DNA of 64,000 nt from a virus. The notes under the pieces were generated by a model. It worked only from the letters and a program-made list of their open reading frames with translations, did no database searches and had not been told where the DNA came from. The stretch is taken from IMG/VR virus record IMGVR_UViG_3300045988_118801, positions 17,384-81,383 of that record; one strand, written 5' to 3'. The position numbers were made by a program, and so were the translations under genes. This document shows positions 15,886-58,311 of this stretch, piece after piece. The number at the start of each line of letters is the position of its first letter. The first letter of the stretch is position 1.

Positions 15886-16794
15886 CTATTTTCCCACTTG
15901 ATTATATTTGATTATTATCAATTTAATTTTGTTCTTCTTGCAATACTCTTTTAATCTTTTATCTCTTTCTACTTGTACCTTAAAATCATCTTCACTTTTA
16001 TGGAAATAAGAGTTAAACTCGTAATGCTGTATACCATTAAATTCGATGAATGTATTATGTTGTGGTAGAAAGAAATCAACCCTTAAAGAATTACGAGAAA
16101 ACAAATAACGTTCTAATGTTATTCTATATTGTCTTTTATATTCAATGTCGTTATTTTTTAAATATTCTTTTATTTTTAATTCTCCTTTTGAGGATTTACA
16201 TATAGGGCATCCGTGACCACTTAAATGAGCGTTTGGCTTCTGCTCAAATTCGCCATGTTTGGGGCATAAAATAATCACGTTAGTCCAACTATTTACATAC
16301 TTAACACGACTATAATCATAAGTATCGCCATGAATAGATTTCGCTTTTTCTATAAACCAATCTGTGTTTTTTGAATATAACTCCGAAACTTTTTCTCTTC
16401 CACATAAAAAGCAGCCTTGACCTCTCAAGTGATTATTAGGCGTTTGAAAAAAATCACAATTATGTTTTTTACATATAATACATACTTTAGTTGAACTATC
16501 TATGTATTTAACTTTTGAATAGTCATATTTATCACCATGAATTTTTTGTGCCCTACTTATAAATTCACTACAAGACATTCTTTGAGAATCTGCTATCTTT
16601 TTTCTTTTACAAAATCTACAACCATGACCAATCAAATGTTTTATAGGTTTTTGAGAAAAAACTCTTCCACACTTTTTGCATATTATCAAAACCTCTGTAG
16701 AATTATTAATATAATTCACTAAAGTGTAATCATAATTGCCTCCATGTATTTTTATAGCTTTTTCAACAAACTCTTCCTTTGTTAATCTCTTCAT
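15886..16794 (-). CDS. Triple zinc-ribbon repeat protein with C-terminal Vsr/DUF559-like PD-(D/E)xK nuclease fold (homing-endonuclease-like)
   Basis: Three repeats of G..YDYS.V.Y......V...C..H..F.Q.P..HL.G.GC..C, then RVDFFLPQHNTFIEFNGIQHY...ERDKRLKEYC. Confidence 0.55.
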   Translation of the reverse strand: MKRLTKEEFVEKAIKIHGGNYDYTLVNYINNSTEVLIICKKCGRVFSQKPIKHLIGHGCRFCKRKKIADSQRMSCSEFISRAQKIHGDKYDYSKVKYIDSSTKVCIICKKHNCDFFQTPNNHLRGQGCFLCGREKVSELYSKNTDWFIEKAKSIHGDTYDYSRVKYVNSWTNVIILCPKHGEFEQKPNAHLSGHGCPICKSSKGELKIKEYLKNNDIEYKRQYRITLERYLFSRNSLRVDFFLPQHNTFIEFNGIQHYEFNSYFHKSEDDFKVQVERDKRLKEYCKKNKIKLIIIKYNQVGK

Positions 16795-19087: not shown

Positions 19088-19118
19088 CAAATATACAAAC
19101 TTATTTCGTATCTGCAAA
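19088..19118 (-). promoter_or_regulatory. Bacteroidota-type promoter (TTTG-N19-TATATTTG) firing leftward into an ORF-poor segment
   Basis: On the minus strand, TTTG is at 19118-19115 and TATATTTG at 19095-19088 with a 19-nt spacer. Confidence 0.6.
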
Positions 19119-35224: not shown

Positions 35225-35255
35225 TTTGTTTTTACTTTATAAATACCTATATTTG
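35225..35255 (+). promoter_or_regulatory. Consensus Bacteroidota promoter TTTG-N19-TATATTTG
   Basis: TTTG at 35225-35228 and TATATTTG at 35248-35255. Confidence 0.65.
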
Positions 35256-35635: not shown

Positions 35636-35656
35636 AATAAAAAAAACGCAAAATAT

Positions 35657-35687
35657 TTTGGTGGTAATATAATAATCACTATATTTG
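35657..35687 (+). promoter_or_regulatory. Consensus Bacteroidota promoter TTTG-N19-TATATTTG driving a non-coding transcript
   Basis: TTTG at 35657-35660 and TATATTTG at 35680-35687. Confidence 0.65.
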
Positions 35688-35693
35688 CAATGT

Positions 35694-35930
35694 CATTAAG
35701 ACAAGACATAATGAGTGGCAAAAGTTTCAGTTACTTCGGTGCTATATGAATTTTAAACTGAATCTTAAATATCCCTCTTTTATAACGTAGTGAAAAAATG
35801 GGTTACTTCAAATTATTAAGTGTTTAGGTTCGAGTCCTAATACGGTTTATCCGTATTAGCAATTGGTAGCAAAACCCATTTTAAACTATCTCGTTAATCA
35901 AAGGATACCATTCGTGGTATCCTTTTTTTG
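35694..35930 (+). ncRNA. Structured RNA of about 240 nt with a T-loop-containing cloverleaf-like module (candidate Y RNA / YrlA-like partner of Ro60)
   Basis: No ORF is present. It is bounded by the promoter above and by a UUCG-capped terminator. A 10-bp helix (35795-35804 with 35873-35882) encloses three hairpins, including TTAGG-TTCGAGT-CCTAA (35824-35840). Confidence 0.55.
35902..35929 (+). terminator. Intrinsic terminator with UUCG tetraloop
   Basis: AGGATACCA-TTCG-TGGTATCCT followed by T7. Confidence 0.8.
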
Positions 35931-35957
35931 TTTATAAACATCTAAAACATTATAACT

Positions 35958-37343
35958 ATGAGTAAATTCAGCAAAAAAGAAAAATCAGTAAAAAACAGAG
36001 CTGGCGGTATCGCTTACAAAGAGAGTGAAAACATGGAACTTGTATCTATGCTATTGTGTTCTTTTATGAACGATAAATTCTATGAGAATACAAAAGATTT
36101 TGAATCAAGACTTGAAACATGTATAGAAAAGTGTGATAAGCTATTTGCGGCAAAAGCAATAGTATATGCCAGAAAAGAATTTGGAATGAGAAGTGTAACT
36201 CATGCAGCGGCTTCAATACTCGCCAAGCATGTGTCAGGTGAACCTTGGGCAAAATCATTCTATAATAATGTCGTTTATCGTTTGGATGATATTACTGAGA
36301 TAATGGCTTACCATTTTTCCAAACAGAATAAGCTATCAAGTGCTATGAAGCGTGGGTTTGCTATGGCTTTCAACAGATTTGACGAATACCAGATTGCAAA
36401 GTACAAAGGCAGTAATAACTCAATCAAGCTTGTCGATGCGGTAAATATGATTCACCCTAAAAAATCTGCAAAGAACGGAGATGCTATAGAAAAGCTGGTT
36501 AATGGAACTCTGAAATGCTCTGAAACATGGGAAAGCATGTTGTCTGATGCCGGCAACGACAAAGAAGCAAAAATAAAAGTATGGAAGAGCTTAATTTCTG
36601 AAAATAAGCTTGGATATATGGCACTACTTCGTAATGTGCGAAATATCGTATTGCTTGAAGACGATGAATTAAAAGCAATGTGCTATAAGGCACTTGTAAA
36701 CAAAGACGCTATCCATAAATCATTGGTTTTACCTTTCAGATTTTTGACTGCATACGAACAGTTATCATTTGATTCAGAGGCGATGTCATACATAAGTCAG
36801 GCTTGCGAAATTGCTTGCGACAATGTACCTAAACTTGATGGTAAAACTCTGGTTGCACTTGATGTAAGTGGTTCTATGTATCGTGTTTCAAAGATAGCTT
36901 CTTTATTTGCGGCAGCATTTGTTAAATCTAATCATTGTGACCTTGTTTCTTTCGATTATTCTGCCAGATACATAAATGTCAACTGGAATGACAGTTTGCT
37001 GACAATCCAAAGACAATTAAACTTCTGTGGTGGTGGAACAAATTTCCCTTCTATATTCAATGTTGCTAACAAGAAATACGATAGGGTTATCATTCTTTCG
37101 GATATGCAAAGCTGGATGAACAGACATTCCCCTAAACAAGCGTTTAAGTTTTATAAATCAAAATTCGGAATTAAAGACTGTAAGGTTTATTCAATAGACC
37201 TTCAAGGATATGGAACTTTACAGCTACCCCAAAAAGATGTATTCTGTCTTGCTGGCTTTAGCGAAAAAGTCTTTGACCTTATGAATCTAATAGAGCAGGG
37301 ATATAATGCTCTTATGGATAAAATCAATGAAATAACGCTGTAA
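35958..37343 (+). CDS. rsr: Ro60-related TROVE plus vWA protein (Rsr-like)
   Basis: VKNRAGGIAYKESENMELVSMLLCSFMNDKFYE, GYMALLRNVRNI, the MIDAS motif LVALDVSGSM, CGGGTNFPSIF and RVIILSDMQSW parallel Deinococcus Rsr as I remember it. Confidence 0.8.
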   Translation: MSKFSKKEKSVKNRAGGIAYKESENMELVSMLLCSFMNDKFYENTKDFESRLETCIEKCDKLFAAKAIVYARKEFGMRSVTHAAASILAKHVSGEPWAKSFYNNVVYRLDDITEIMAYHFSKQNKLSSAMKRGFAMAFNRFDEYQIAKYKGSNNSIKLVDAVNMIHPKKSAKNGDAIEKLVNGTLKCSETWESMLSDAGNDKEAKIKVWKSLISENKLGYMALLRNVRNIVLLEDDELKAMCYKALVNKDAIHKSLVLPFRFLTAYEQLSFDSEAMSYISQACEIACDNVPKLDGKTLVALDVSGSMYRVSKIASLFAAAFVKSNHCDLVSFDYSARYINVNWNDSLLTIQRQLNFCGGGTNFPSIFNVANKKYDRVIILSDMQSWMNRHSPKQAFKFYKSKFGIKDCKVYSIDLQGYGTLQLPQKDVFCLAGFSEKVFDLMNLIEQGYNALMDKINEITL

Positions 37344-38211: not shown

Positions 38212-38242
38212 TTGTATAATGCATCTTCATATCGTATATTTG
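38212..38242 (+). promoter_or_regulatory. Probable promoter (ATTG-N20-TATATTTG)
   Basis: TATATTTG at 38235-38242 lies inside the 5' end of the track ORF. This argues for the downstream ATG at 38267. Confidence 0.45.
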
Positions 38243-38266
38243 TATCAAACATTAAAATATAATGAT

Positions 38267-38950
38267 ATGACAGGTATTTATATGATTACAGTTAAAGATG
38301 TGTATGCTTACATCGGTCAATCAGTTGATATTGATAACAGACTAAAAAAGCACAAAAGAGATATAGAGAATAAGTGTCATCCCAATATGGATAATGTAGG
38401 AGATTATTCTTTATCAGATTGCAAGTTTTCTGTTTTGACGGAATGTAAAAGCGAAGAATTAAATGATATGGAATTAGAAATGTATGAGAAATACTCTACT
38501 TCATACATAATGCTAAACAAAAGAGTGTGTGGAATACAAGGAGTAGTTGGTGAATCTTTAGTATTCTACAATGGTAAAAATCCAAATCTAAATTACAATA
38601 ATGGAAGTTTTTATATAGAGGATATAAAAATAAATTCCACTGATAATATGTATTGCTTATCTGATTTAGTATTGTATATCAGAAACCATACAGACTATGA
38701 CTTCAAGCTAAATGGAGTGCTTGTTAACAATGGTTTTATAGATAGAATTAACGCATTATGCGGATTGGCAATACCGAAAACAAGAAACACCGCTAAATAT
38801 TTAAAGGAAGCTGGAATTTATAAAGTTATAGGAGCAAGAGAAAACAAAAAAATATATTGCAGTTTTGAGGTTTTTGTAACATTTGCTTTTTATAGCTGCC
38901 CTCAATTTGCTGCTTCTATTTGTATTATGATTGGAGATAAATTAAAGTAA
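38267..38950 (+). CDS. GIY-YIG domain endonuclease-like protein (free-standing homing-endonuclease candidate)
   Basis: MTGIYMITVKDVYAYIGQSVDIDNRLKKHKRD ... ELEMYEK. Confidence 0.6.
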   Translation: MTGIYMITVKDVYAYIGQSVDIDNRLKKHKRDIENKCHPNMDNVGDYSLSDCKFSVLTECKSEELNDMELEMYEKYSTSYIMLNKRVCGIQGVVGESLVFYNGKNPNLNYNNGSFYIEDIKINSTDNMYCLSDLVLYIRNHTDYDFKLNGVLVNNGFIDRINALCGLAIPKTRNTAKYLKEAGIYKVIGARENKKIYCSFEVFVTFAFYSCPQFAASICIMIGDKLK

Positions 38951-47918: not shown

Positions 47919-47993
47919 GGGCAAATGGGTGAGTGATTTAACCAACACTCTGCAAAGGGTGTTTTTACAGCGGTTTGAATCCGCTTTTGCCCT
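47919..47993 (+). tRNA. tRNA-Cys(GCA)-like gene with non-canonical 8-nt anticodon loop
   Basis: Acceptor stem GGGCAAA/TTTGCCC is a perfect 7 bp. U8 and A14 are present. The T-arm is AGCGG-TTTGAAT-CCGCT and the discriminator is T. The anticodon arm is ACACT-CTGCAAAG-GGTGT, and no CCA is encoded. Confidence 0.55.
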
Positions 47994-48139
47994 CTATGTT
48001 TTCATAGATATTTGTTTTTCACCATGAGCAAGAGTTGTGTTCTCATATTATTACAGTTTAAATTTTTTACGTAAAAGGGTTAGCGATAGGTTTTTCATGG
48101 TGGCTTATCGCTGGCTCTTTTTTTATAGGAGGTTAATTT

Positions 48140-50430: not shown

Positions 50431-53400
50431 TCAGGCATCTTTTATAACAGAAGGGCTATGTATTATTGCTATAAATGCAGGACTATCACCGTCTGTTAAC
50501 ACATGTGTTCCACCTAATGGTGCGTTATATGCCGTGGAGTATATAAAATATGTACTTGTTTGTTCTTTTACGCAAGCAATAGGAAAATACGAATCTCTTT
50601 TAGGCGTTATTAACACATAATAAGCACTTATATTTAAATTATGTGTAACAGTATAAGTCCCTGTACCAGTTCTTCTCACGCTAACATTTGTATAATTACC
50701 ATACCCTCTCGATATTATTCCCGAAGATGAAATATATCCGCACCAAAGTATTCTAGGTCTTGAAAGTCCCTTACTGTTGGTAAATACTTGTAAACCATAT
50801 TGGGATAAATTAATACTATACTTGTTGGATGTTCCACCACCATCACTGCTCATAGTAAGGCTAAAAGCACTAAGATTAGCTTCTTGGAAACTTCCGGAAC
50901 TAAATCCTCCTTTAAGAACTAACGAACCTGCATAGCTCGCTGCACTTGTCCCTATAATTTCTGTTTTCAATAAAACATTCTTTGTAGAAGAATCCGTTAA
51001 TGTTATACCTTCTTTATCTACTAAAGTATTTATACCTTTAACATTTACGGCATTAAGTGTTTTTACTACAAGAGCATCCGCTTCAATCAGACTTGTACGA
51101 ATATGTCCTCCCTCAATGATTGTATTTCCGGCTGTTGCTGCGGAAACCATATCAGAATAATTTGCATAACCAAGCTTTTTAGCTAAATCCTCTTTGGAGG
51201 AATTTATACTAGAAGTAACATCTCCTGAGTCAGCTTTATTATTGATTGTGCTCTGCAAACTACTATTAAGAGAACTGAATGTAATCTTTCCTTGTAAAGA
51301 TACATCTTTTCCGAAAATACTTATGGCGTTCTCTTTAACGGTAATTCCTGTCGTAATTTGTTCTGTTGTGGAATAATCGCTAGGTGCAGCACTCCACGGT
51401 GTTGACCTTTCTCCTTTTTCGACTTTGAGATTCCAAACACGGAAGTAACCTATCGGGCTGTCGTTTTGCAGCACGGATGAGATGTAATCTAAGCGAAATC
51501 TAAATACAACTACACTATTTTCTGTTGCTGAGCCTCCAATAGTAAAAGGGGTAGATATAAATTTACCCGAGCCATTAGTTCTTAAATCAAAATTACTTTC
51601 TACCCAGCCATATGGTTCTGTGAATTGAGTTATAATTCTCGCTGTACGTTCGGATGTTGTATTAAAGTTAAGATTGCTCGCTTGGTATTCAAATGAAACA
51701 GTAACTATATCACCTGTTTTTAAGCCTTTAACGGTATATACACCCCACGCCTGATTGACTACATTATCAAAAGTAGTCAACCCTTTTTCATTACTTGTCA
51801 ATAAAGCGTAATTTTGATTGACAGATTCATCAACTTTATAAGCATAAACCTTTGTAAAGTAAGCCGAACCAAAGTTTGAATCTCCATCAATTTGAAAACA
51901 AATACCAGCTTTTGTATATCCAGCGGGAATTGTAATATAACCTGATAGCTTTTGCCATCCGCTAGTTTTAGCTGCAACAGAAGAACCATTATTACGCCAG
52001 CTTGTAGTACCGTCGGATTTTTTTAGTACAAGACCAACTCTTACAGTATAATTAGCTAATTGAGCATTTACATACGCTGAAACGTAATATTTTTCGCCTT
52101 CTGCAACAGCTACATATTTTTTAGCTTGCACATCACGTTGAGTAGACTTCATACAATAACTTGTAGGACAACTATTGTTAGCAGTTGATGCACTAACTCT
52201 TGAACCTCCGGTATAAAGCAAGCTATAATTAGCATCATCGAAGCAACTATCAGGAACAATATTGTTTACCTTTGATGTTGTTGTGACCTTAGATGAAATC
52301 CCAATCCAAATATTATCAGGTTGCAATTTAACCTCAGCTTCGCTAACTCTTGTTGTCAACGAAGAAAGATTGTTGTTTGTCTGATTTAAACTGCTCTGAA
52401 CAGCAGTAACTTCTGACTTTTCGGCTTTCAAAGACAAACTACTGCTTAATTGAGTAATTGAAGTTTGCATAGATGATACGGTAGTAATCGTTGCGTACTT
52501 CTTGTCTGCATTTTGTCCGGATGTTGTTATAGCATCATTCTTTGCATCATTCGCCTTGTTGGTTGCATCTGTAGCAGCAGTAGATATAGCGTCCTGCTTT
52601 GCCTTATTTGCTTTGGAAGTTGCGTCAGCAGAGGCAGTACTTATTGCTGAAGTCTTTGCATCATTCGCCTTGTTGGTTGCATCGCTCGCTGCCGTATTAA
52701 TTATTTCCTGCTTAATAGTAGTAATTTCAGTAGAAGAAACCTTGCTGCTAATTTCTCCTTCTAGTACACTGAATTGTGCCGTAACTTCTTTTTTATATTC
52801 AGTCAAAGCGTTTTCTGCATCTTCAGGAGCGGGTGACCAGTCTGTTTCTTTTGTGCTAAATTCAGCTTTAGGTAAAGCTATCCATACAGTACCTGCCTCA
52901 TTTAGCCAAAAAACAATATCATTCCAAGTAGTTTGTGGATTTAATTTCACTACATATCTTTTCCAAGATGTTGTTAATGTTACTGTGAGAATAGATACTG
53001 AACCATTACCATTTCTCAACGATAATACTATGCCGTTGGAACTAGCCTTGCCGTAGAATGAGAATATAAATTCTTTTTTCTCTAAATTTTTTGCCCATGT
53101 ATGCCAATAAGCATCATTTGTGCCGCCTGTTCCAGCTCCCGATGATACTATTTTTAGACTATTATATTTATCTTGATACTTATTTGTCGTATCTATAGAA
53201 ACTTTATGATTCCCTCTTCCAACTGATATATTCTCAAGACTAGAAACATCTACTAGACCTGATAATTTTATCAGGTTTCTTCCCCCAATCTGAATACCAC
53301 TAACAGCACTATCTGTATATTTTTTAGAAGAAGTTACAGCAGCAGTAATACTGTTGTTTGTCTGTTCAAATTGAGAACTTACCGTTTTCTTATAAGAACT

Positions 53401-56400
53401 TAAATCGTTGGCTATACCTTGCGCATAGTCACGTGCCGCATTCGATATTGCCGTTAGAGCCGTCGTTCTCTGTGTATAATACGTTGTCTGCTTTGTAGCA
53501 AAATCAGAAGGAATAGCAATTGTTTCAGGAGATGAAGCCGTAAGAGTTACCAACACAGCACGATAAGTCGTGTGTGCATTGTTGTAATTTGTAGGAGTAC
53601 CTAGATTGTACTTACTATATCCGTTTGCAATCTGTGTCTTGTCTGCGTCAATTCTAGCTATTTCTTCTTTCAATGACTGCTTTTCTGTTGGAGAAATAGA
53701 ACCGTCAGAAGCCCAGCTATTCAATCGTTGTGTAGCCGCATCAGCATCACTTTGTGCATTGTCTGCTGCTGCCTTTGCGTTGGCTGCATCCTTTATTGCC
53801 TGATTAGCCTTTTCTTGTGCAGCATCTGCAGTTTGTTGTGCCGCATCTGCAAGGGATTTAGCCTTTGCTGATATAGCATTCAATAAATCGGTGCGAGCAT
53901 CGTAGTAATCCTTAAACTTGCTTCTGAATGTAGCTCCTGATATATTACTTGTTGTTGAAAGACTTGAAAGCAACGGTGTTATATAAGCACTTAGCGTATT
54001 ATAAGCCGTATCGTAAGCAGTCCTGCTTACTCCGTACTTGTCAGCACTTGCATCGTTTTTAGGCTTTTCAGAAACAATAATATCCCATTCTTTTTTTGTT
54101 TCCTGCTTTTCCTGAGCAGTCAGCTTGTTGTCATTTGCTATATCAGACAATAAGGCGTTTGCAGTTGCCGCGCTTTGAACGGCGTTATTGGCTGTCTGCT
54201 GTGCACTATCAGCTGCTTGTTTAGCTGCATCTGCCGCAGCCTGAGCCTGATTTGCCTTAGTATCATCCGTATACTTAGAAGCAAGTTCCCAGTGCTCAAT
54301 AGAAAACTGAGCATTTGCTTGTTTGGCAGTCTTGCATCGAAGCAAATCATTCTTGTAGCTTCCGTATGTTGCATTAACCCACAAATCTCCAATATCATAC
54401 ACTGAGGCATTAGACGGGGTAGTCACAAATACCCTTCTCTTTCCATCTGCTGTGTCTTGTGCTTTTTTAGCGTCAGCCAAAGCTTTTGTGATATCAGAAT
54501 CGGTTATTACCTGCCATACATAAGAAATATCTGACATTTGGAAACGGTAAGCCTTTCCGTTTCCATCATAATACAAGTCACCTAAATGTACATTCTTATC
54601 TTCGCTTGTAGTCCAATTTACAGCAGGTTCGTTACTTAATGTAGGAACTGGTTCATAAAACCATGTTTCAATAGCACCGTCTATTTGGTTTTTAACAGCT
54701 TCTAAATCCTTAGATAACTGATTTACAAATGAAATGTTTTCAGATAAATCAGATATAGCATCGTCTACTTTTGTATTAACTTCCCCTACCGCGTTGTCGA
54801 TATAGTCCTTTACGCTTTCTCCAGAACTGAATTTTATTGCATCGGCAATAATCATTACTTCCGAGCGTGAAAAAGAAACAAATTCTTTTCCGTCTAGTGA
54901 ATAAGAATTAATTCCTCTGTACAACTTGAAATAAGGTGCATCATTGCCGTATGCAGACAAGATAATAGCTGCCTGACGTGTAGCGTCAGACTTGTTACCT
55001 AACTGTACAATATCATCACCTGCTTTTGGCTCGGTAGAACCCGCATCGCAATCGGTTTTAGACAAGTCTATATAATTATCTCCTGTTCCAACAACAGCAC
55101 GCCAATAATAGGTGTTAGTTACATTCTGATTAACACCTTCTTTAACATTGAATGTCTGTGCTCTTGCTAAATCTCCGACAACAAATTCCTGTTCGATTGT
55201 CTTTTCTCCGTCTGTATTCTCAAAATAGCAGCGGTAGAAATCTCCTTTATCTTCTACTTTAATGCACGACATCGAAGCCAGAGTAAGAATTATCTGTCCT
55301 CCTACATGCTTAATTTGCTGGATAAGCAACAGAATGAAAGTCGCAACCTTTCTGACAAGCATACGGTCTACCTCCAGATAACTGTCGCCGTTTTCGTCTT
55401 TCTTCAGACAGAATCCAGCTCCCAAAGCACCGGTAGAGAAATTGGCTGATTCTATTCCGCTTCTTACAAGTATAGAAAGTAAGTCGGCAACACCCTGTTC
55501 GTCTATCTTAGCACCTTTCAGTCCTTTTTTATAGTCACCTATTGTCAACGCACCTCTAAGCAATAAATTAAGCAATTCTGCTGCTCCGTCTGCTGAAATC
55601 TTAGCACCTGACTTTTTGCTTAGATATGTACCTATTTCTAAACCGTCAATCAGCTTCACAAGGTCATTGAATGTCTTTTCTCCCTTTGCGCTGTCGGCTA
55701 CGTCCTTTCTAAGAAAGTATTTGTTCCCTTGACTTAGTATGTCACCTCTTCCTATATTGGAAAGTACGTCCTGCTTAACACCGTCAAGCATCGTCTGTAA
55801 TGAATTTTGACCGATAGAAAGCGTATCTACCAAGTTTACTTCTATTTCAGGCAATGGCGAATCGGCACTCATCGTATATGTAAAGTTGTCTACATAGAAA
55901 GTATACTGTACCTTGTTGTATTCTACTATAAGCCGTGAATTTTCGTTCAACTGTTCAAGAATATCAGGATGTTCTGCAAAGAATATACGGCTGAACTTTA
56001 TGGAGAAGTTAAACTTCTCGCTGTTGTTTTCTGCCATATACTGAATAAGGTATTCTTTCAGGTCGTTTTCGGCTTTGTATATGTACGAATCAGGCATGTT
56101 TATGTTCAGTATGACGAATGTATCACCTGCTTTCGGTTTGAGTTTTTTTGATACATTAGGCATGACGTTTGTATAGGTTGTATCGTCTTTCTTTAGTGCA
56201 ACCCATACTTCATAATTTACCGTATCGTTCTGTCTGTCCTGCGGTGTTTCTTTCTGCAATCCGTCACGACCGCACCTTACGTTTCCGTTCTCGTCACGCA
56301 ACAGATTTCCGCTATCGTCTACCTGAACCAAATTCTTTTGCGTTTCATCTCCTGCTCCTACCTCAAAGGTACAAGAGCCGCACATACCGCTTGTGAACGA

Positions 56401-58188
56401 AAATTCCATATTTCCGCTTTCAGAAGCATGGTTGAAAAGATTGAATCCGTACTCTCCGTTAAACTTTCTCAGCTTTCCAAAGAAGTATGGATGAGTGTAT
56501 TCTCCGTTTTCATTTACATCGTCGTTGTCATTCTCGTCATACGCAAACTCGGTGAACATGTCTATTCTAAGACCTTCTGTGTTTGTCATGCCCTTGATAG
56601 ACGGTTTGATATCTTCTGCGGTAACTTTACCCTCTAAGGGATTTCCGTCAGAATAAACGTTCTCGAAAGTATAGTATTCTTCTGAATCGGGTTTCTTATA
56701 CGTGCTGTTTATTGCATTGTAGAATCTCTGTTCGCCTTCCGTTTCTCTGTATACAGGCGGCATAAGTTCCGTACAATAAGGTATCTGCTTGCCTACATTC
56801 TGTGTAAAGTAGTCGCCTACTACAAGTTTAGGGCTTCCGTTAAGGCTTATACCTATTTCATCAAGTGTAACTTCCTTTCCGTTCAAGTCCCAGTATTCGT
56901 AGTACGAACTAGGGAATGAAGCCTCAAAGTAGAATTTGGCACTTGTTACCGAATCACTGACAATTCCAATGTAGGAAACATAGAACACAACCTTGATTGT
57001 ATAGTCACCTGCCACTACCTTATCTCCGTTGTTCAGGACTTTGTACTGTGTATCTTCTTCGCCATATCCTTTAATTGTGAAAGATGGTGAGCTTACAGCA
57101 CCTAGACTGATATTAATAGGCATAAAGGCGGTATTAACCGTAATGCTTGCATCATGCAGTACCGTTACGTTTACAAGAAATGTAGCCGTACTTTTATAGG
57201 AACTTCCTTCTTTTCTTACCGGTATAGATATTTCAGAACCTTCTTCGTAGTCTACAAACGTTGATGAATTATAGAAATCGTAGGAGTTTATGACAACGAC
57301 ATTTTCTCCACGTTTCTTTGAATAGATACATTTGTCGGTCGAACCTATTTTCTCGGCAAATTTGACCGCATCTGCAAGCGATAAATCGGATTGTGTCAGA
57401 CCTTGATTGCCTGAATATACATTTATCGAAACTTCACCCTTTGGTGTCTTGTTTGGGTAGTAGTAAGGAATGTTGTCGCTGCTTCCTGCACCAGTGATTC
57501 TGTTTACTAGGTTGTAGTTTGCGTTCTCCTTTGATACAGACAACAAAGCACCGTCAATGCTGTACTTCATCACGGTAGGTATTGCGTTCTGCTCATATCC
57601 TATGTGTATGGTCTTTCCGACAAAATAGTAAGGCAGCTTATATACATTGTATATTTCCTGTAAAGCTTCGAGAATGTATTTGTCCTCAAAAGATACAAGA
57701 TGGCTTTCAGAAGTTATGCCCTCATCAATTACGGCTGTATAGCCTATCTTTGAGTAGGACATGGACGCATTAAGTCTAGCGACAAACTGTGCTATGTCAC
57801 CCATGAACTGTACTTTCAGACTGTTTGAAACAACACCGTCAATCGTACTGTCACCCTGAACCGCATCTATGAAATAGGTATGATTGAGGACTTCACGTTC
57901 GGATTTGAGCGTAACCGAATGTTCGTATCTTTCATCCTCGTTGCTTTTGGATGATGAGGGCGTATCTTTTACATAGAATTTTTCTCCGTCAAATGAAGCA
58001 TATACCTTGTCCGTCCAAAGCTTGTCTAGACAAAGTCTGTGCTTTACGGTAGCTTCTATTGTGGGTACACCACCCATTCTTGCTGCATCGTATTTGAAAT
58101 CGCCTATGACAATCTGTTCCGTCTTGTTTGGGAACGGTGTGTCCTTGATTCCGTCTACGAACGTGTATAACTTTAAATTCTTCTCCAT
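50431..58188 (-). CDS. Giant tail fibre / host-specificity protein (about 2585 aa)
   Basis: A single uninterrupted ORF. It has A/Q/K/D-rich alpha-helical repeat blocks (DATNKANDAK units), long beta-rich segments and a fibre-like composition. Confidence 0.75.
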   Translation of the reverse strand: MEKNLKLYTFVDGIKDTPFPNKTEQIVIGDFKYDAARMGGVPTIEATVKHRLCLDKLWTDKVYASFDGEKFYVKDTPSSSKSNEDERYEHSVTLKSEREVLNHTYFIDAVQGDSTIDGVVSNSLKVQFMGDIAQFVARLNASMSYSKIGYTAVIDEGITSESHLVSFEDKYILEALQEIYNVYKLPYYFVGKTIHIGYEQNAIPTVMKYSIDGALLSVSKENANYNLVNRITGAGSSDNIPYYYPNKTPKGEVSINVYSGNQGLTQSDLSLADAVKFAEKIGSTDKCIYSKKRGENVVVINSYDFYNSSTFVDYEEGSEISIPVRKEGSSYKSTATFLVNVTVLHDASITVNTAFMPINISLGAVSSPSFTIKGYGEEDTQYKVLNNGDKVVAGDYTIKVVFYVSYIGIVSDSVTSAKFYFEASFPSSYYEYWDLNGKEVTLDEIGISLNGSPKLVVGDYFTQNVGKQIPYCTELMPPVYRETEGEQRFYNAINSTYKKPDSEEYYTFENVYSDGNPLEGKVTAEDIKPSIKGMTNTEGLRIDMFTEFAYDENDNDDVNENGEYTHPYFFGKLRKFNGEYGFNLFNHASESGNMEFSFTSGMCGSCTFEVGAGDETQKNLVQVDDSGNLLRDENGNVRCGRDGLQKETPQDRQNDTVNYEVWVALKKDDTTYTNVMPNVSKKLKPKAGDTFVILNINMPDSYIYKAENDLKEYLIQYMAENNSEKFNFSIKFSRIFFAEHPDILEQLNENSRLIVEYNKVQYTFYVDNFTYTMSADSPLPEIEVNLVDTLSIGQNSLQTMLDGVKQDVLSNIGRGDILSQGNKYFLRKDVADSAKGEKTFNDLVKLIDGLEIGTYLSKKSGAKISADGAAELLNLLLRGALTIGDYKKGLKGAKIDEQGVADLLSILVRSGIESANFSTGALGAGFCLKKDENGDSYLEVDRMLVRKVATFILLLIQQIKHVGGQIILTLASMSCIKVEDKGDFYRCYFENTDGEKTIEQEFVVGDLARAQTFNVKEGVNQNVTNTYYWRAVVGTGDNYIDLSKTDCDAGSTEPKAGDDIVQLGNKSDATRQAAIILSAYGNDAPYFKLYRGINSYSLDGKEFVSFSRSEVMIIADAIKFSSGESVKDYIDNAVGEVNTKVDDAISDLSENISFVNQLSKDLEAVKNQIDGAIETWFYEPVPTLSNEPAVNWTTSEDKNVHLGDLYYDGNGKAYRFQMSDISYVWQVITDSDITKALADAKKAQDTADGKRRVFVTTPSNASVYDIGDLWVNATYGSYKNDLLRCKTAKQANAQFSIEHWELASKYTDDTKANQAQAAADAAKQAADSAQQTANNAVQSAATANALLSDIANDNKLTAQEKQETKKEWDIIVSEKPKNDASADKYGVSRTAYDTAYNTLSAYITPLLSSLSTTSNISGATFRSKFKDYYDARTDLLNAISAKAKSLADAAQQTADAAQEKANQAIKDAANAKAAADNAQSDADAATQRLNSWASDGSISPTEKQSLKEEIARIDADKTQIANGYSKYNLGTPTNYNNAHTTYRAVLVTLTASSPETIAIPSDFATKQTTYYTQRTTALTAISNAARDYAQGIANDLSSYKKTVSSQFEQTNNSITAAVTSSKKYTDSAVSGIQIGGRNLIKLSGLVDVSSLENISVGRGNHKVSIDTTNKYQDKYNSLKIVSSGAGTGGTNDAYWHTWAKNLEKKEFIFSFYGKASSNGIVLSLRNGNGSVSILTVTLTTSWKRYVVKLNPQTTWNDIVFWLNEAGTVWIALPKAEFSTKETDWSPAPEDAENALTEYKKEVTAQFSVLEGEISSKVSSTEITTIKQEIINTAASDATNKANDAKTSAISTASADATSKANKAKQDAISTAATDATNKANDAKNDAITTSGQNADKKYATITTVSSMQTSITQLSSSLSLKAEKSEVTAVQSSLNQTNNNLSSLTTRVSEAEVKLQPDNIWIGISSKVTTTSKVNNIVPDSCFDDANYSLLYTGGSRVSASTANNSCPTSYCMKSTQRDVQAKKYVAVAEGEKYYVSAYVNAQLANYTVRVGLVLKKSDGTTSWRNNGSSVAAKTSGWQKLSGYITIPAGYTKAGICFQIDGDSNFGSAYFTKVYAYKVDESVNQNYALLTSNEKGLTTFDNVVNQAWGVYTVKGLKTGDIVTVSFEYQASNLNFNTTSERTARIITQFTEPYGWVESNFDLRTNGSGKFISTPFTIGGSATENSVVVFRFRLDYISSVLQNDSPIGYFRVWNLKVEKGERSTPWSAAPSDYSTTEQITTGITVKENAISIFGKDVSLQGKITFSSLNSSLQSTINNKADSGDVTSSINSSKEDLAKKLGYANYSDMVSAATAGNTIIEGGHIRTSLIEADALVVKTLNAVNVKGINTLVDKEGITLTDSSTKNVLLKTEIIGTSAASYAGSLVLKGGFSSGSFQEANLSAFSLTMSSDGGGTSNKYSINLSQYGLQVFTNSKGLSRPRILWCGYISSSGIISRGYGNYTNVSVRRTGTGTYTVTHNLNISAYYVLITPKRDSYFPIACVKEQTSTYFIYSTAYNAPLGGTHVLTDGDSPAFIAIIHSPSVIKDA

Positions 58189-58311
58189 TGTGCACATATA
58201 TTTAACACAAATATACTACAATTTTGTACTTATTACAATTATTCAAAGTTAAACTATGTTAATCTGTTTGCAGATTAAAAATTAATGATTATATTTGTGG
58301 TGTTCTAGATA

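What the first reader, a model, noticed from the sequence alone, without database searches (positions are those of the whole stretch)
35657..37343. Phage-borne Ro60/TROVE gene preceded by a promoter/terminator-bounded structured RNA with a T-loop module (candidate Y-RNA-like ribonucleoprotein system)
Seen in the sequence:
- A consensus promoter (TTTG-N19-TATATTTG, 35657-35687) and a UUCG-capped terminator (35902-35929) delimit about 240 nt with no ORF.
- Inside, a 10-bp helix (AAAATGGGTT 35795-35804 with AACCCATTTT 35873-35882) closes three hairpins.
- The middle hairpin, TTAGG-TTCGAGT-CCTAA, is a canonical tRNA T-arm. The others are ACTT..AAGT and TACGG-TTTAT-CCGTA.
- ATTAA (35695-35699) can pair with TTAAT (35894-35898) to close the transcript ends.
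- 28 nt after the terminator starts a 461-aa ORF with TROVE-like motifs (NRAGG, LLRNVRNI) and a vWA MIDAS motif (DVSGSM).

Established knowledge: Ro60 orthologues (Rsr) bind Y RNAs that are usually encoded next to them. Bacterial YrlA-type Y RNAs carry a tRNA-like domain. Ro/Y RNPs act in RNA quality control and decay.

Inference: this phage carries its own Ro/Y-RNA-like RNP, possibly to manage damaged or cleaved host or phage RNAs during infection. The lack of a separate promoter for the Ro60 gene suggests expression by terminator read-through.
Basis: partly seen in the sequence, partly recalled or inferred. Interest (0 to 1): 0.8.

Follow-up and report, generated by a model that had tools for sequence, protein, structure and literature searches.

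The report
Phage Ro60 gene with two Y RNAs
A phage that probably infects Bacteroidota carries a Ro60 RNA-binding protein gene, preceded by two small non-coding "Y RNA" genes (one with a tRNA-like domain); this arrangement is already known from bacteria and other phages, so it is a real but fairly ordinary new example.

Summary
ORF 35958-37343 encodes a genuine Ro60 protein. It matches Pfam TROVE and vWA_Ro60. Its predicted ring fold matches solved Ro60 structures, best Thermus phage phiLo Ro60.

The 322-nt gap upstream holds two tandem Y-RNA modules, not one RNA. They lie between a Bacteroidota-type promoter (35657-35687) and an intrinsic terminator (35900-35932).
- M1 (35710-35780) is a short YrlB-like hairpin.
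- M2 (35781-35899) is YrlA-like. A basal bulged helix and a second stem enclose a permuted tRNA-like domain: V hairpin, T arm, closed acceptor hairpin and a degenerate D arm.

Rfam YrlA scores M2 only 23.9 bits (threshold 69). Covariance models built here from relatives score M2 at 75 bits and M1 at 24 bits, each the top hit in the window.

The same modules occur in arrays of 1-6, always on the Ro60 strand and almost always just upstream, in about 70 phage contigs and many metagenome-assembled genomes. Covariation is strong (93-96% paired against 56-65% in shuffles).

Phage Ro60 genes with upstream Y RNAs are already published (Chen 2014; phiLo Ro60, 2025). This is a new, divergent member of a known kind. 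RNP formation, its function and terminator read-through remain untested.

The parts
35657..35687 (+). Bacteroidota-type promoter: -33 TTTG (35657-35660), 19-nt spacer, -7 TATATTTG (35680-35687). The inferred transcription start is about 35694-35697.
   Evidence: Exact consensus match. The consensus occurs 14 times in the window against 2.1 expected. The TAnnTTTG box is conserved in relatives. The start site is inferred, not shown.
35710..35780 (+). Y-RNA module M1 (short, YrlB-like). Basal helix GAG 35713-15 / CUC 35775-77, bulged U 35716, GG 35717-18 / CC 35773-74. Stem b 35722-35732 / 35756-35766. GUUACUUC 35730-35737. Small apical hairpin UUC 35735-37 / GAA 35748-50.
   Evidence: It is the only hit in the 64-kb window to model R2, which was built from 30 short modules of unrelated contigs (24 bits, E 0.0013). 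Homologous modules were found in L083, L087, L088, L001 and L047. Covariation of the class is shown.
35781..35899 (+). Y-RNA module M2 (YrlA-like, with a tRNA-like domain).
   Evidence: Model R1 scores it 75.1 bits, E 8e-17; the next hit in the window scores 12.9 bits. Rfam YrlA scores it 23.9 bits, E 0.0069, over the full model but below the gathering score of 69.
35784..35793 (+). M2 basal bulged helix, 5' strand: AACG, bulged U 35788, then AGUGA. It pairs with 35887-35895 (U.AUCU-CGUU). Candidate Ro60-binding site.
   Evidence: Family columns: G-C closing pair, bulged U, then a pair that is A-U in 125 and G-C in 16 of 144 sequences, then G-C in 139. The helix is 98.6% paired.
35795..35804 (+). 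M2 stem b, 5' strand (AAAAUGGGUU). It pairs with 35873-35882 (AACCCAUUUU).
Evidence: The homologous stem covaries. The G of GUUACUUC pairs with C in 114 of 115 informative sequences.
35802..35809 (+). Conserved GUUACUUC motif. It contains UUAC, the YUAY element that begins the V loop in published YrlA RNAs.
   Evidence: The 8-mer occurs 204 times on the Ro60 strand and 14 times on the other strand in 89 loci, mostly just upstream of Ro60. YUAY is described in PMC4201824.
35805..35821 (+). V (variable-arm-like) hairpin ACUU / AAGU with a 9-nt loop.
   Evidence: Read from the sequence. An equivalent hairpin with a 7-nt loop is present in most long modules of relatives. The V stem-loop of YrlA is described.
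35824..35840 (+). T arm UUAGG-UUCGAGU-CCUAA.
   Evidence: The T stem is 98.4% paired with compensatory changes in 4 of 5 pairs. GGUUCGA is invariant.
35841..35855 (+). Closed acceptor-stem-like hairpin UACGG-UUUAU-CCGUA.
   Evidence: Six covarying pairs in relatives, with no sequence conservation.
35856..35872 (+). Degenerate D arm: UU-AGC-AAUUGGUA-GC-AAA. The D loop keeps GG; the D stem is reduced to about 2 bp.
   Evidence: It aligns to the UAGCUCAGUUGGUAGAGC block of relatives. The non-canonical pairs in the window are marked.
35900..35932 (+). Intrinsic terminator: 11-bp stem, UUCG loop, U-run.
   Evidence: Found by the terminator scan. Kept by compensatory changes in L081, L083, L087, L088, L001 and L047. 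Present in 22 of 73 distinct loci.
35958..37343 (+). Ro60/Rsr orthologue, 461 aa: TROVE ring plus a vWA domain with the MIDAS motif DVSGS (36861-36875).
   Evidence: Pfam TROVE 83.8 bits and vWA_Ro60 38.5 bits. PDB 9KOP/9L5Y at E 4e-18. AlphaFold2 model with pLDDT 81.8. Foldseek TM 0.72 to phiLo Ro60 and 0.66-0.71 to Deinococcus, Xenopus and human Ro60.

Best explanation
The locus is a phage-encoded Ro60/Y-RNA ribonucleoprotein cassette.

One promoter (35657-35687) drives a transcript of about 235 nt that ends at the terminator (35900-35932). The transcript holds two tandem Y RNAs.
- M1 is a short hairpin, YrlB-like.
- M2 is YrlA-like. Its basal stems enclose a circularly permuted tRNA mimic: V hairpin, T arm, closed acceptor hairpin and D arm.

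The Ro60 gene follows 25 nt after the terminator's U-run. It is probably expressed by read-through or from a non-consensus promoter.

Inferred mechanism, by analogy with characterised Ro60 systems:
- The ring-shaped protein binds the conserved bulged helix at the base of each module: 5' G-(U)-A-G-Y-G-A opposite 5' U-U-U-C-U-C.
- The apical part, which is the tRNA-like domain in M2, recruits or excludes partners. The likely partner is a host 3'-5' exoribonuclease such as PNPase.
- The RNP would then redirect RNA decay or quality control during infection.

Shown here: the identity of the protein, the conserved and covarying RNA structures, and their strict linkage and co-orientation with Ro60 genes. 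Inferred: RNA-protein binding, processing of the dimeric transcript, the effector and the benefit to the phage.
For: Protein:
- Pfam TROVE and vWA_Ro60 are above their cut-offs.
- The closest solved structure is Thermus phage phiLo Ro60. That protein binds two Y-RNA-like RNAs encoded upstream of its gene and forms complexes with host PNPase in vitro (PMC12135203).
- The predicted fold matches all solved Ro60 structures at TM about 0.7.

RNA:
- Rfam's best family is YrlA over the full model.
- The gap is conserved in size and sequence in relatives whose Ro60 is 57-91% identical.
- RNAalifold finds 25 pairs, 24 with compensatory changes.
- Model R1 gives 164 hits, all on the Ro60 strand. Of the 150 aligned hits, 138 lie within 1.5 kb upstream of the gene.
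- 95.5% of cells are paired, against 56% in shuffles and 40-53% when partners are slid.
- The short-module model gives 92.9% against 64.5%.
- One pair in the bulged helix is A-U in 125 and G-C in 16 sequences.
- The window's M2 scores 75 bits and M1 24 bits, each the top hit in 64 kb.

Architecture: V, T, AS and D elements, YUAY, and at least two Y RNAs per locus all match the published YrlA/YrlB description.

Context: phage genes surround the locus and the promoter consensus is enriched in the window.
Against: - There is no expression, binding or processing data for this phage.
- M2 fails the Rfam YrlA gathering score (23.9 against 69), and its D stem is degenerate.
- M1 is a weak hit (24 bits).
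- The published 5' motif GNCGAA(N0-1)G is not present as such: M2 has UAGUGA and M1 has GUGGCAA.
- A strong terminator sits between the RNAs and the Ro60 gene, so co-expression of protein and RNA is not guaranteed.
- No PNPase or other effector is encoded nearby.
Confidence: 0.8

Rival explanations
1. The two modules are not trans-acting Y RNAs. They are a cis-acting leader of the Ro60 mRNA. Ro60 binds its own leader and controls termination at 35900-35932, giving autoregulatory attenuation.
For: - The modules sit between the only consensus promoter and the ORF.
- A terminator lies directly in front of the gene.
- In 51 of 73 loci no stringent terminator separates the array from the gene, so the modules are then part of the mRNA 5' region.
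Against: - In the characterised systems the equivalent RNAs accumulate as stable Ro60-bound small RNAs, even when processed from a common precursor (PMC4201824).
- Arrays of up to 6 modules interleaved with tRNA genes look like small-RNA gene arrays rather than a leader.
- A few modules lie downstream of or far from the gene.
- The two roles are not mutually exclusive.
Confidence: 0.1
2. M2 is a decayed or permuted tRNA gene, or a tRNA-derived attachment-site remnant, with no link to Ro60.
For: - T arm and D-loop sequences are tRNA-like.
- The Rfam tRNA model gives a weak partial hit of 16.5 bits.
- An integrase is encoded in the window.
Against: - ARAGORN finds no tRNA there, and the tRNA score is below the threshold of 29.
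- The order T arm, closed hairpin, D arm is permuted and is conserved with covariation in more than 60 homologues. These are always beside and co-oriented with Ro60.
- The integrase is 10 kb away on the other strand.
Confidence: 0.03
3. The structure is a chance feature of AT-rich intergenic DNA.
For: The region is 32% G+C, and several alternative pairings are possible in the minimum-free-energy fold.
Against: - Fold z-score of -4.3.
- Model E-values of 8e-17 and 1e-3.
- Covariation statistics.
- Strand and position bias of all hits.
Confidence: 0.01

Closest known systems
Thermus phage phiLo Ro60 with Yrl1/Yrl2 (PDB 9KOP, 9L5Y; PMC12135203)
   Same: It is a phage-encoded Ro60 with two Y-RNA-like genes directly upstream on the same strand. 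It is the closest solved structure to this protein (E 4e-18, TM 0.72). Its Y RNAs are stem / internal loop / stem RNAs with a (C/Y)GAA-type motif.
   Different: Only about 24% protein identity, and a different host phylum. The phiLo Yrls were defined by a CGAA motif and RNAfold, and the passages of the paper read here do not describe a tRNA-like domain in them. Here M2 carries a full V/T/AS/D tRNA-like domain, and the 5' motif is UAGYGA.
YrlA / YrlB of Salmonella Typhimurium and Mycobacterium smegmatis; Rfam RF02553 (PMC4201824; bioRxiv 10.1101/312249)
   Same: The RNAs are encoded next to and co-oriented with rsr. There are at least two Y RNAs per locus, one with a permuted tRNA-like domain in the order V, T, closed acceptor, D. 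YUAY begins the V loop. The basal stem is formed by the 5' and 3' ends. In M. smegmatis both RNAs are made from one precursor upstream of rsr.
   Different: M2 scores only 23.9 bits and relatives score 29-45 bits against RF02553, whose gathering score is 69. GNCGAA is replaced by UAGYGA facing UUUUCUC in a bulged helix. The extended invariant GUUACUUC is present. There is no linkage to rtcBA. In relatives the modules form arrays of up to 6, interleaved with tRNA genes.
Deinococcus radiodurans Rsr / Yrn1 / PNPase (RYPER)
   Same: A Ro60 ring plus a Y RNA whose apical module tethers an exoribonuclease. This is the model for the mechanism proposed here. The fold matches 2NVO at TM 0.68.
   Different: Yrn1 has a different arrangement of tRNA-like elements. 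The system is chromosomal and stress-induced, and PNPase tethering is shown experimentally there but not here.
Ro-like RNA-binding proteins annotated in cultured phages (Streptomyces, Gordonia and mycobacteriophages, crAss001, CcrColossus)
   Same: The same protein family occurs in 217 GenBank phage records. The PHROGs family is phrog_850.
   Different: Identity is 21-33%, or 48.5% to an unannotated 635-kb uncultured phage. The RNA partners of most of these proteins are not annotated.

Membership tests
Ro60 / Rsr (TROVE) protein | TROVE domain profile match above the curated threshold | tested here: met
   PF05731 scores 83.8 bits against a cut-off of 23, E 1.9e-23.
Ro60 / Rsr (TROVE) protein | C-terminal vWA domain with the MIDAS motif DxSxS | tested here: met
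   PF25045 vWA_Ro60 scores 38.5 bits against a cut-off of 27.7. D302, S304 and S306 (DVSGS) are invariant in 33 homologues.
Ro60 / Rsr (TROVE) protein | Ring of alpha-helical repeats closed by the vWA domain (fold) | tested here: met
   The AlphaFold2 model has pLDDT 81.8 and pTM 0.74. The 13 best Foldseek PDB hits are all Ro60 structures, with TM 0.66-0.72 over the full length.
Ro60 / Rsr (TROVE) protein | Binds Y RNA and misfolded RNA | not testable with these tools
   This needs EMSA or RNA immunoprecipitation.
YrlA-type Y RNA (Rfam RF02553) | Reaches the Rfam gathering score | tested here: not met
   M2 scores 23.9 bits against 69. No match at gathering in the window or in 40 related loci. 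Relatives score 29-45 bits.
YrlA-type Y RNA (Rfam RF02553) | Encoded within a few kb of a Ro60 gene, on the same strand | tested here: met
   M2 ends 59 nt upstream of the ATG on the same strand. All 164 plus 150 model hits in relatives are on the Ro60 strand.
YrlA-type Y RNA (Rfam RF02553) | Permuted tRNA-like domain: V, T arm, closed acceptor hairpin, D arm | tested here: met
   T, AS and D stems covary in relatives. The window has V 35805-21, T 35824-40, AS 35841-55 and D 35856-72, with a degenerate D stem.
YrlA-type Y RNA (Rfam RF02553) | Conserved YUAY at the start of the V loop | tested here: met
   UUAC at 35803-35806 lies within the invariant GUUACUUC.
YrlA-type Y RNA (Rfam RF02553) | 5' motif GNCGAA(N0-1)G proposed as the Ro60 contact | tested here: inconclusive
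   At the equivalent position the family has (G)UAG(U/C)GA and the window's M2 has GUAGUGA. Only the YGA core is shared.
YrlA-type Y RNA (Rfam RF02553) | Basal helix formed by the 5' and 3' ends, with a bulge | tested here: met
   Stem a is 98.6% paired. There is a bulged U, and the next pair is A-U in 125 and G-C in 16 sequences.
YrlA-type Y RNA (Rfam RF02553) | Bound by Ro60; modified by TruB and DusA | not testable with these tools
   This needs experiments.
YrlB-like second Y RNA | Small hairpin RNA with the Ro60-site motif but no tRNA-like domain, adjacent to YrlA and rsr | tested here: met
   M1 at 35710-35780 is the only R2 hit in the window (24 bits, E 0.0013). The class covaries. Binding was not tested.
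Canonical tRNA gene | Cloverleaf in the standard order, detected by tRNA finders | tested here: not met
   ARAGORN finds nothing at 35690-35935. Rfam tRNA scores 16.5 bits against a threshold of 29.

The most novel reading that the evidence does not exclude
The phage Ro60/Y-RNA particle is a host-takeover or counter-defence device. The closed-acceptor tRNA mimic would either hijack the host PNPase or degradosome, as proposed for phiLo, or act as a decoy for tRNA-targeting defence nucleases or tRNA-modifying enzymes. On this reading, the GUUACUUC-type Y RNAs are a separate subfamily that Rfam does not detect at its gathering score. They would be made in arrays together with phage tRNA genes and released by the tRNA-processing machinery.
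Probability: 0.2. Interest if true: 0.65.

Novelty: new member of a known kind. Interest (0 to 1): 0.33.

Why it matters
It adds a probable Bacteroidota phage to the phages known to carry a complete Ro60/Y-RNA cassette.

It also exposes a large set of Y RNAs that the current Rfam YrlA model does not annotate at its gathering score. These lie in about 70 viral contigs and many metagenome-assembled genomes, and number more than 300 modules.

A dedicated covariance model would let these RNAs be annotated. It would also give a clean comparative definition of the probable Ro60-binding bulged helix.

Ro60 orthologues of commensal bacteria have been discussed as triggers of anti-Ro60 autoimmunity (reviews such as PMC8319742). 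Mobile, phage-borne copies in relatives from gut samples may therefore interest that field. This link is not tested here.

What any phage Ro60 RNP does during infection remains open.

Tried and rejected
- Rfam at gathering thresholds found nothing in the window and no YrlA in 40 related loci.
- blastn of the locus against GenBank phages gave one weak hit.
- The single-protein scan of viral contigs found no relative. An alignment query was needed.
- PADLOC gave no defence-system match.
- My first script for pairing stem b was misled by G-U-tolerant chance matches such as GGTTCG. I replaced it with covariance models.
- I first read the hairpin after GUUACUUC as an anticodon arm, which would mean a tRNA permuted at position 26/27. 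I dropped this after reading that YrlA has a V (variable-arm) stem-loop begun by YUAY at exactly this place.
- The sigma-70 promoter scan is uninformative for a Bacteroidota-type promoter.
- The supplementary tables of Chen 2014 and the 2020 Annual Review are not held. I therefore could not check whether any of these taxa were already in their lists.
- A literature search for the GUUACUUC motif returned only unrelated primer and sequence hits among the 15 papers listed.
Full report
**Observation**

- The promoter TTTG-N19-TATATTTG (35657-35687) matches the Bacteroidota -33/-7 consensus in full. That pattern occurs 14 times in the window against 2.1 expected, and none of 100 shuffles reaches 14.
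- The terminator (35900-35925 plus a T-run) was found by the scan.
- The gap 35636-35957 has no meaningful ORF.
- The gap folds more stably than shuffles (z = -4.3).

**The protein**

ORF 35958-37343 (461 aa) is a Ro60 orthologue.
- It matches Pfam TROVE (83.8 bits) and vWA_Ro60 (38.5 bits), both above their curated cut-offs.
- Its best matches among solved structures are 9KOP and 9L5Y, the Ro60 of Thermus phage phiLo (E 4e-18).
- An AlphaFold2 model built on 33 homologues (pLDDT 81.8) superposes over its full length on phage, Deinococcus, Xenopus and human Ro60. TM is 0.66-0.72, and the 13 best PDB hits are all Ro60.
- The NRAGG, LLRNxRNI and MIDAS DxSxS residues are invariant in the family.

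Phage-borne Ro60 is common.
- It occurs in 217 GenBank phage records, many annotated 'Ro-like RNA binding protein'.
- It occurs in 284 IMG/VR stretches.
- There are more than 3,300 homologues in the large protein collection.

The neighbouring genes are phage replication and recombination genes: sliding clamp, primase-helicase, RecT, an SbcC-like protein, integrase, methyltransferase and a GIY-YIG endonuclease.

**The RNA region in relatives**

Contigs whose Ro60 is 57-91% identical keep a gene-free gap of 325-350 nt upstream of the gene. Their alignment shows two repeated modules, each containing GTTACTTC, followed by a terminator kept through compensatory changes.

In 89 loci the 8-mer GTTACTTC occurs 204 times on the Ro60 strand and 14 times on the other strand. 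Most copies lie within 700 nt upstream of the gene, with 1-6 copies per locus.

**Structure and covariation**

An alignment of 24 long modules gives an RNAalifold consensus of 25 pairs, 24 of them with compensatory changes.

A covariance model built from that alignment (R1) was searched against 75 sources.
- It finds 164 matches, all on the Ro60 strand.
- Of the 150 aligned matches, 138 lie within 1.5 kb upstream of the gene, in arrays of 1-6.
- On the resulting alignment 95.5% of cells are paired, against 56% in shuffles and 40-53% when partners are slid.

A second model (R2) was built from 30 short modules, none from the window or its close relatives. It gives 92.9% paired against 64.5% in shuffles.

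**The two modules in the window**

- R1 hits 35781-35899 at 75.1 bits (E 8e-17); the next hit scores 12.9 bits.
- R2's only hit in the window is 35710-35780 at 24 bits (E 0.0013).

The gap therefore contains two tandem modules.

M1 (35710-35780) is a short hairpin:
- basal helix GAG(U)GG / CC-CUC;
- stem b 35722-32 / 35756-66;
- GUUACUUC at 35730-37, followed by a small apical hairpin.

M2 (35781-35899) has:
- basal helix AACG(U)AG / CU-CGUU;
- GUUACUUC at 35802-09;
- a V hairpin (35805-21), T arm (35824-40) and closed acceptor-like hairpin (35841-55);
- a degenerate D arm that keeps the GG of the D loop (35856-72).

**Probable Ro60 site**

At the base of every module the family has 5' (stem)G-U-A-G-Y-G-A opposite 5' U-U-U-C-U-C(stem).
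- The U is bulged.
- The next pair is A-U in 125 sequences and G-C in 16, with 3 exceptions.
- The pair after that is G-C in 139 sequences.

The window shows both states: A-U in M2 and G-C in M1. A conserved bulged helix at the junction of the 5' and 3' ends is where Ro60 binds in characterised Y RNAs (PMC4201824, PMC12135203). Assigning it as the binding site here is an inference.

**Comparison with known families**

Rfam's YrlA model is the best of 4,227 families for M2, and it aligns over its full length. It scores only 23.9 bits against a gathering score of 69. Long modules of relatives reach 29-45 bits. None reaches gathering in 40 loci.

The architecture is nevertheless the published one. 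Chen et al. 2014 describe:
- V, T, AS and D stem-loops;
- a conserved YUAY that begins the V loop, which here is UUAC inside GUUACUUC;
- a 5' Ro60 motif;
- at least two Y RNAs per locus, processed from one precursor upstream of rsr in M. smegmatis;
- YrlA-like RNAs in 254 bacteria and 22 phages.

The phiLo study (2025) shows a phage Ro60 binding two upstream Y-RNA-like RNAs and assembling with host PNPase in vitro.

The same modules also precede Ro60 genes in genome and MAG contigs of Bacteroidota, Verrucomicrobiota and other phyla. There were 150 hits, all on the Ro60 strand. They are often interleaved with tRNA gene arrays.

**Mechanism**

Shown here:
- a Ro60 gene;
- two conserved, covarying RNA modules strictly linked to it and co-oriented with it;
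- a promoter and a terminator that bracket the modules.

Inferred:
- the modules are stable Y RNAs bound by the phage Ro60 through the bulged helix;
- the tRNA-like domain of M2 engages a host factor, with PNPase or tRNA-binding enzymes as candidates;
- the RNP modulates RNA decay or quality control during infection.

No other consensus promoter lies between 35688 and 35957. The Ro60 gene may therefore depend on read-through, but this is untested. Only 22 of 73 distinct loci have a stringent terminator at this position.

- There are two RNAs rather than one.
- The helix encloses four elements rather than three hairpins.
- The ATTAA/TTAAT end-pairing is not conserved, because the ATTAA segment is absent from L083, L087 and L088. 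It also conflicts with the conserved basal stem of M2.

**Verdict**

It is a new, divergent member of a known kind rather than a new kind of system.

The most useful by-product is a large set of YrlA/YrlB-like RNAs that Rfam does not detect at its gathering score, with a clear comparative definition of the probable Ro60-binding helix.

Noticed in passing
window 47919-47994 (+): A tRNA gene with an 8-nt anticodon loop. ARAGORN reports a 4-base anticodon 'gcaa'. Rfam tRNA scores 42.2 bits in the sensitive search, with one extra loop nucleotide, but the whole-window gathering search missed it. It could be a +1 frameshift-suppressor-like or otherwise unusual phage tRNA.
   Followed up: partly
L005 2381-2730; L065 1400-2350; L056 4740-7160; L113, L132, L136, L139, L144, L146, L150: In relatives the Y-RNA modules are interleaved with, or directly adjoin, arrays of genuine tRNA genes upstream of Ro60. 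For example, the L005 tRNA at 2519-2593 lies between two modules. This suggests co-transcription and release by tRNA-processing enzymes. The window itself has no tRNA next to its modules.
   Followed up: partly
window, 14 sites (e.g. 1668-1698 -, 19088-19118 -, 35225-35255 +, 58267-58297 +): The Bacteroidota promoter consensus TTTG-N18-20-TAnnTTTG is enriched about 6.5-fold over shuffles. This points to a Bacteroidota host. The nearest cellular Ro60 relative (57% identity) is in a Porphyromonadaceae MAG (L090).
   Followed up: partly
long modules of relatives, e.g. L033 2790-2928, L019 2753-2885, L071 2485-2618: The V hairpin of many long modules has a 5-bp stem and a 7-nt loop of the form YUGCUAA or YUGUUAA. 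This looks like an anticodon loop (U33-like and A37-like positions) and is followed by GGUC before the T arm. The window's own V loop is a degenerate 9-nt loop.
   Followed up: no
window 50431-58197 (-): A giant ORF of 2,588 aa, not analysed.
   Followed up: no
window 38219-38950 (+) and 15886-16794 (-): GIY-YIG and HNH homing-endonuclease-like genes lie in the replication module. In relatives, HNH and NUMOD endonuclease genes occupy the equivalent position downstream of Ro60 (L081, L087, L088).
   Followed up: no
GenBank LR745206.1 241087-242535: The closest Ro60 in GenBank phages (48.5% identity) is in an unannotated 635-kb 'uncultured phage' record. Several IMG/VR hits are also on contigs of 300-480 kb, so this Ro60 clade is present in very large phages.
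   Followed up: no
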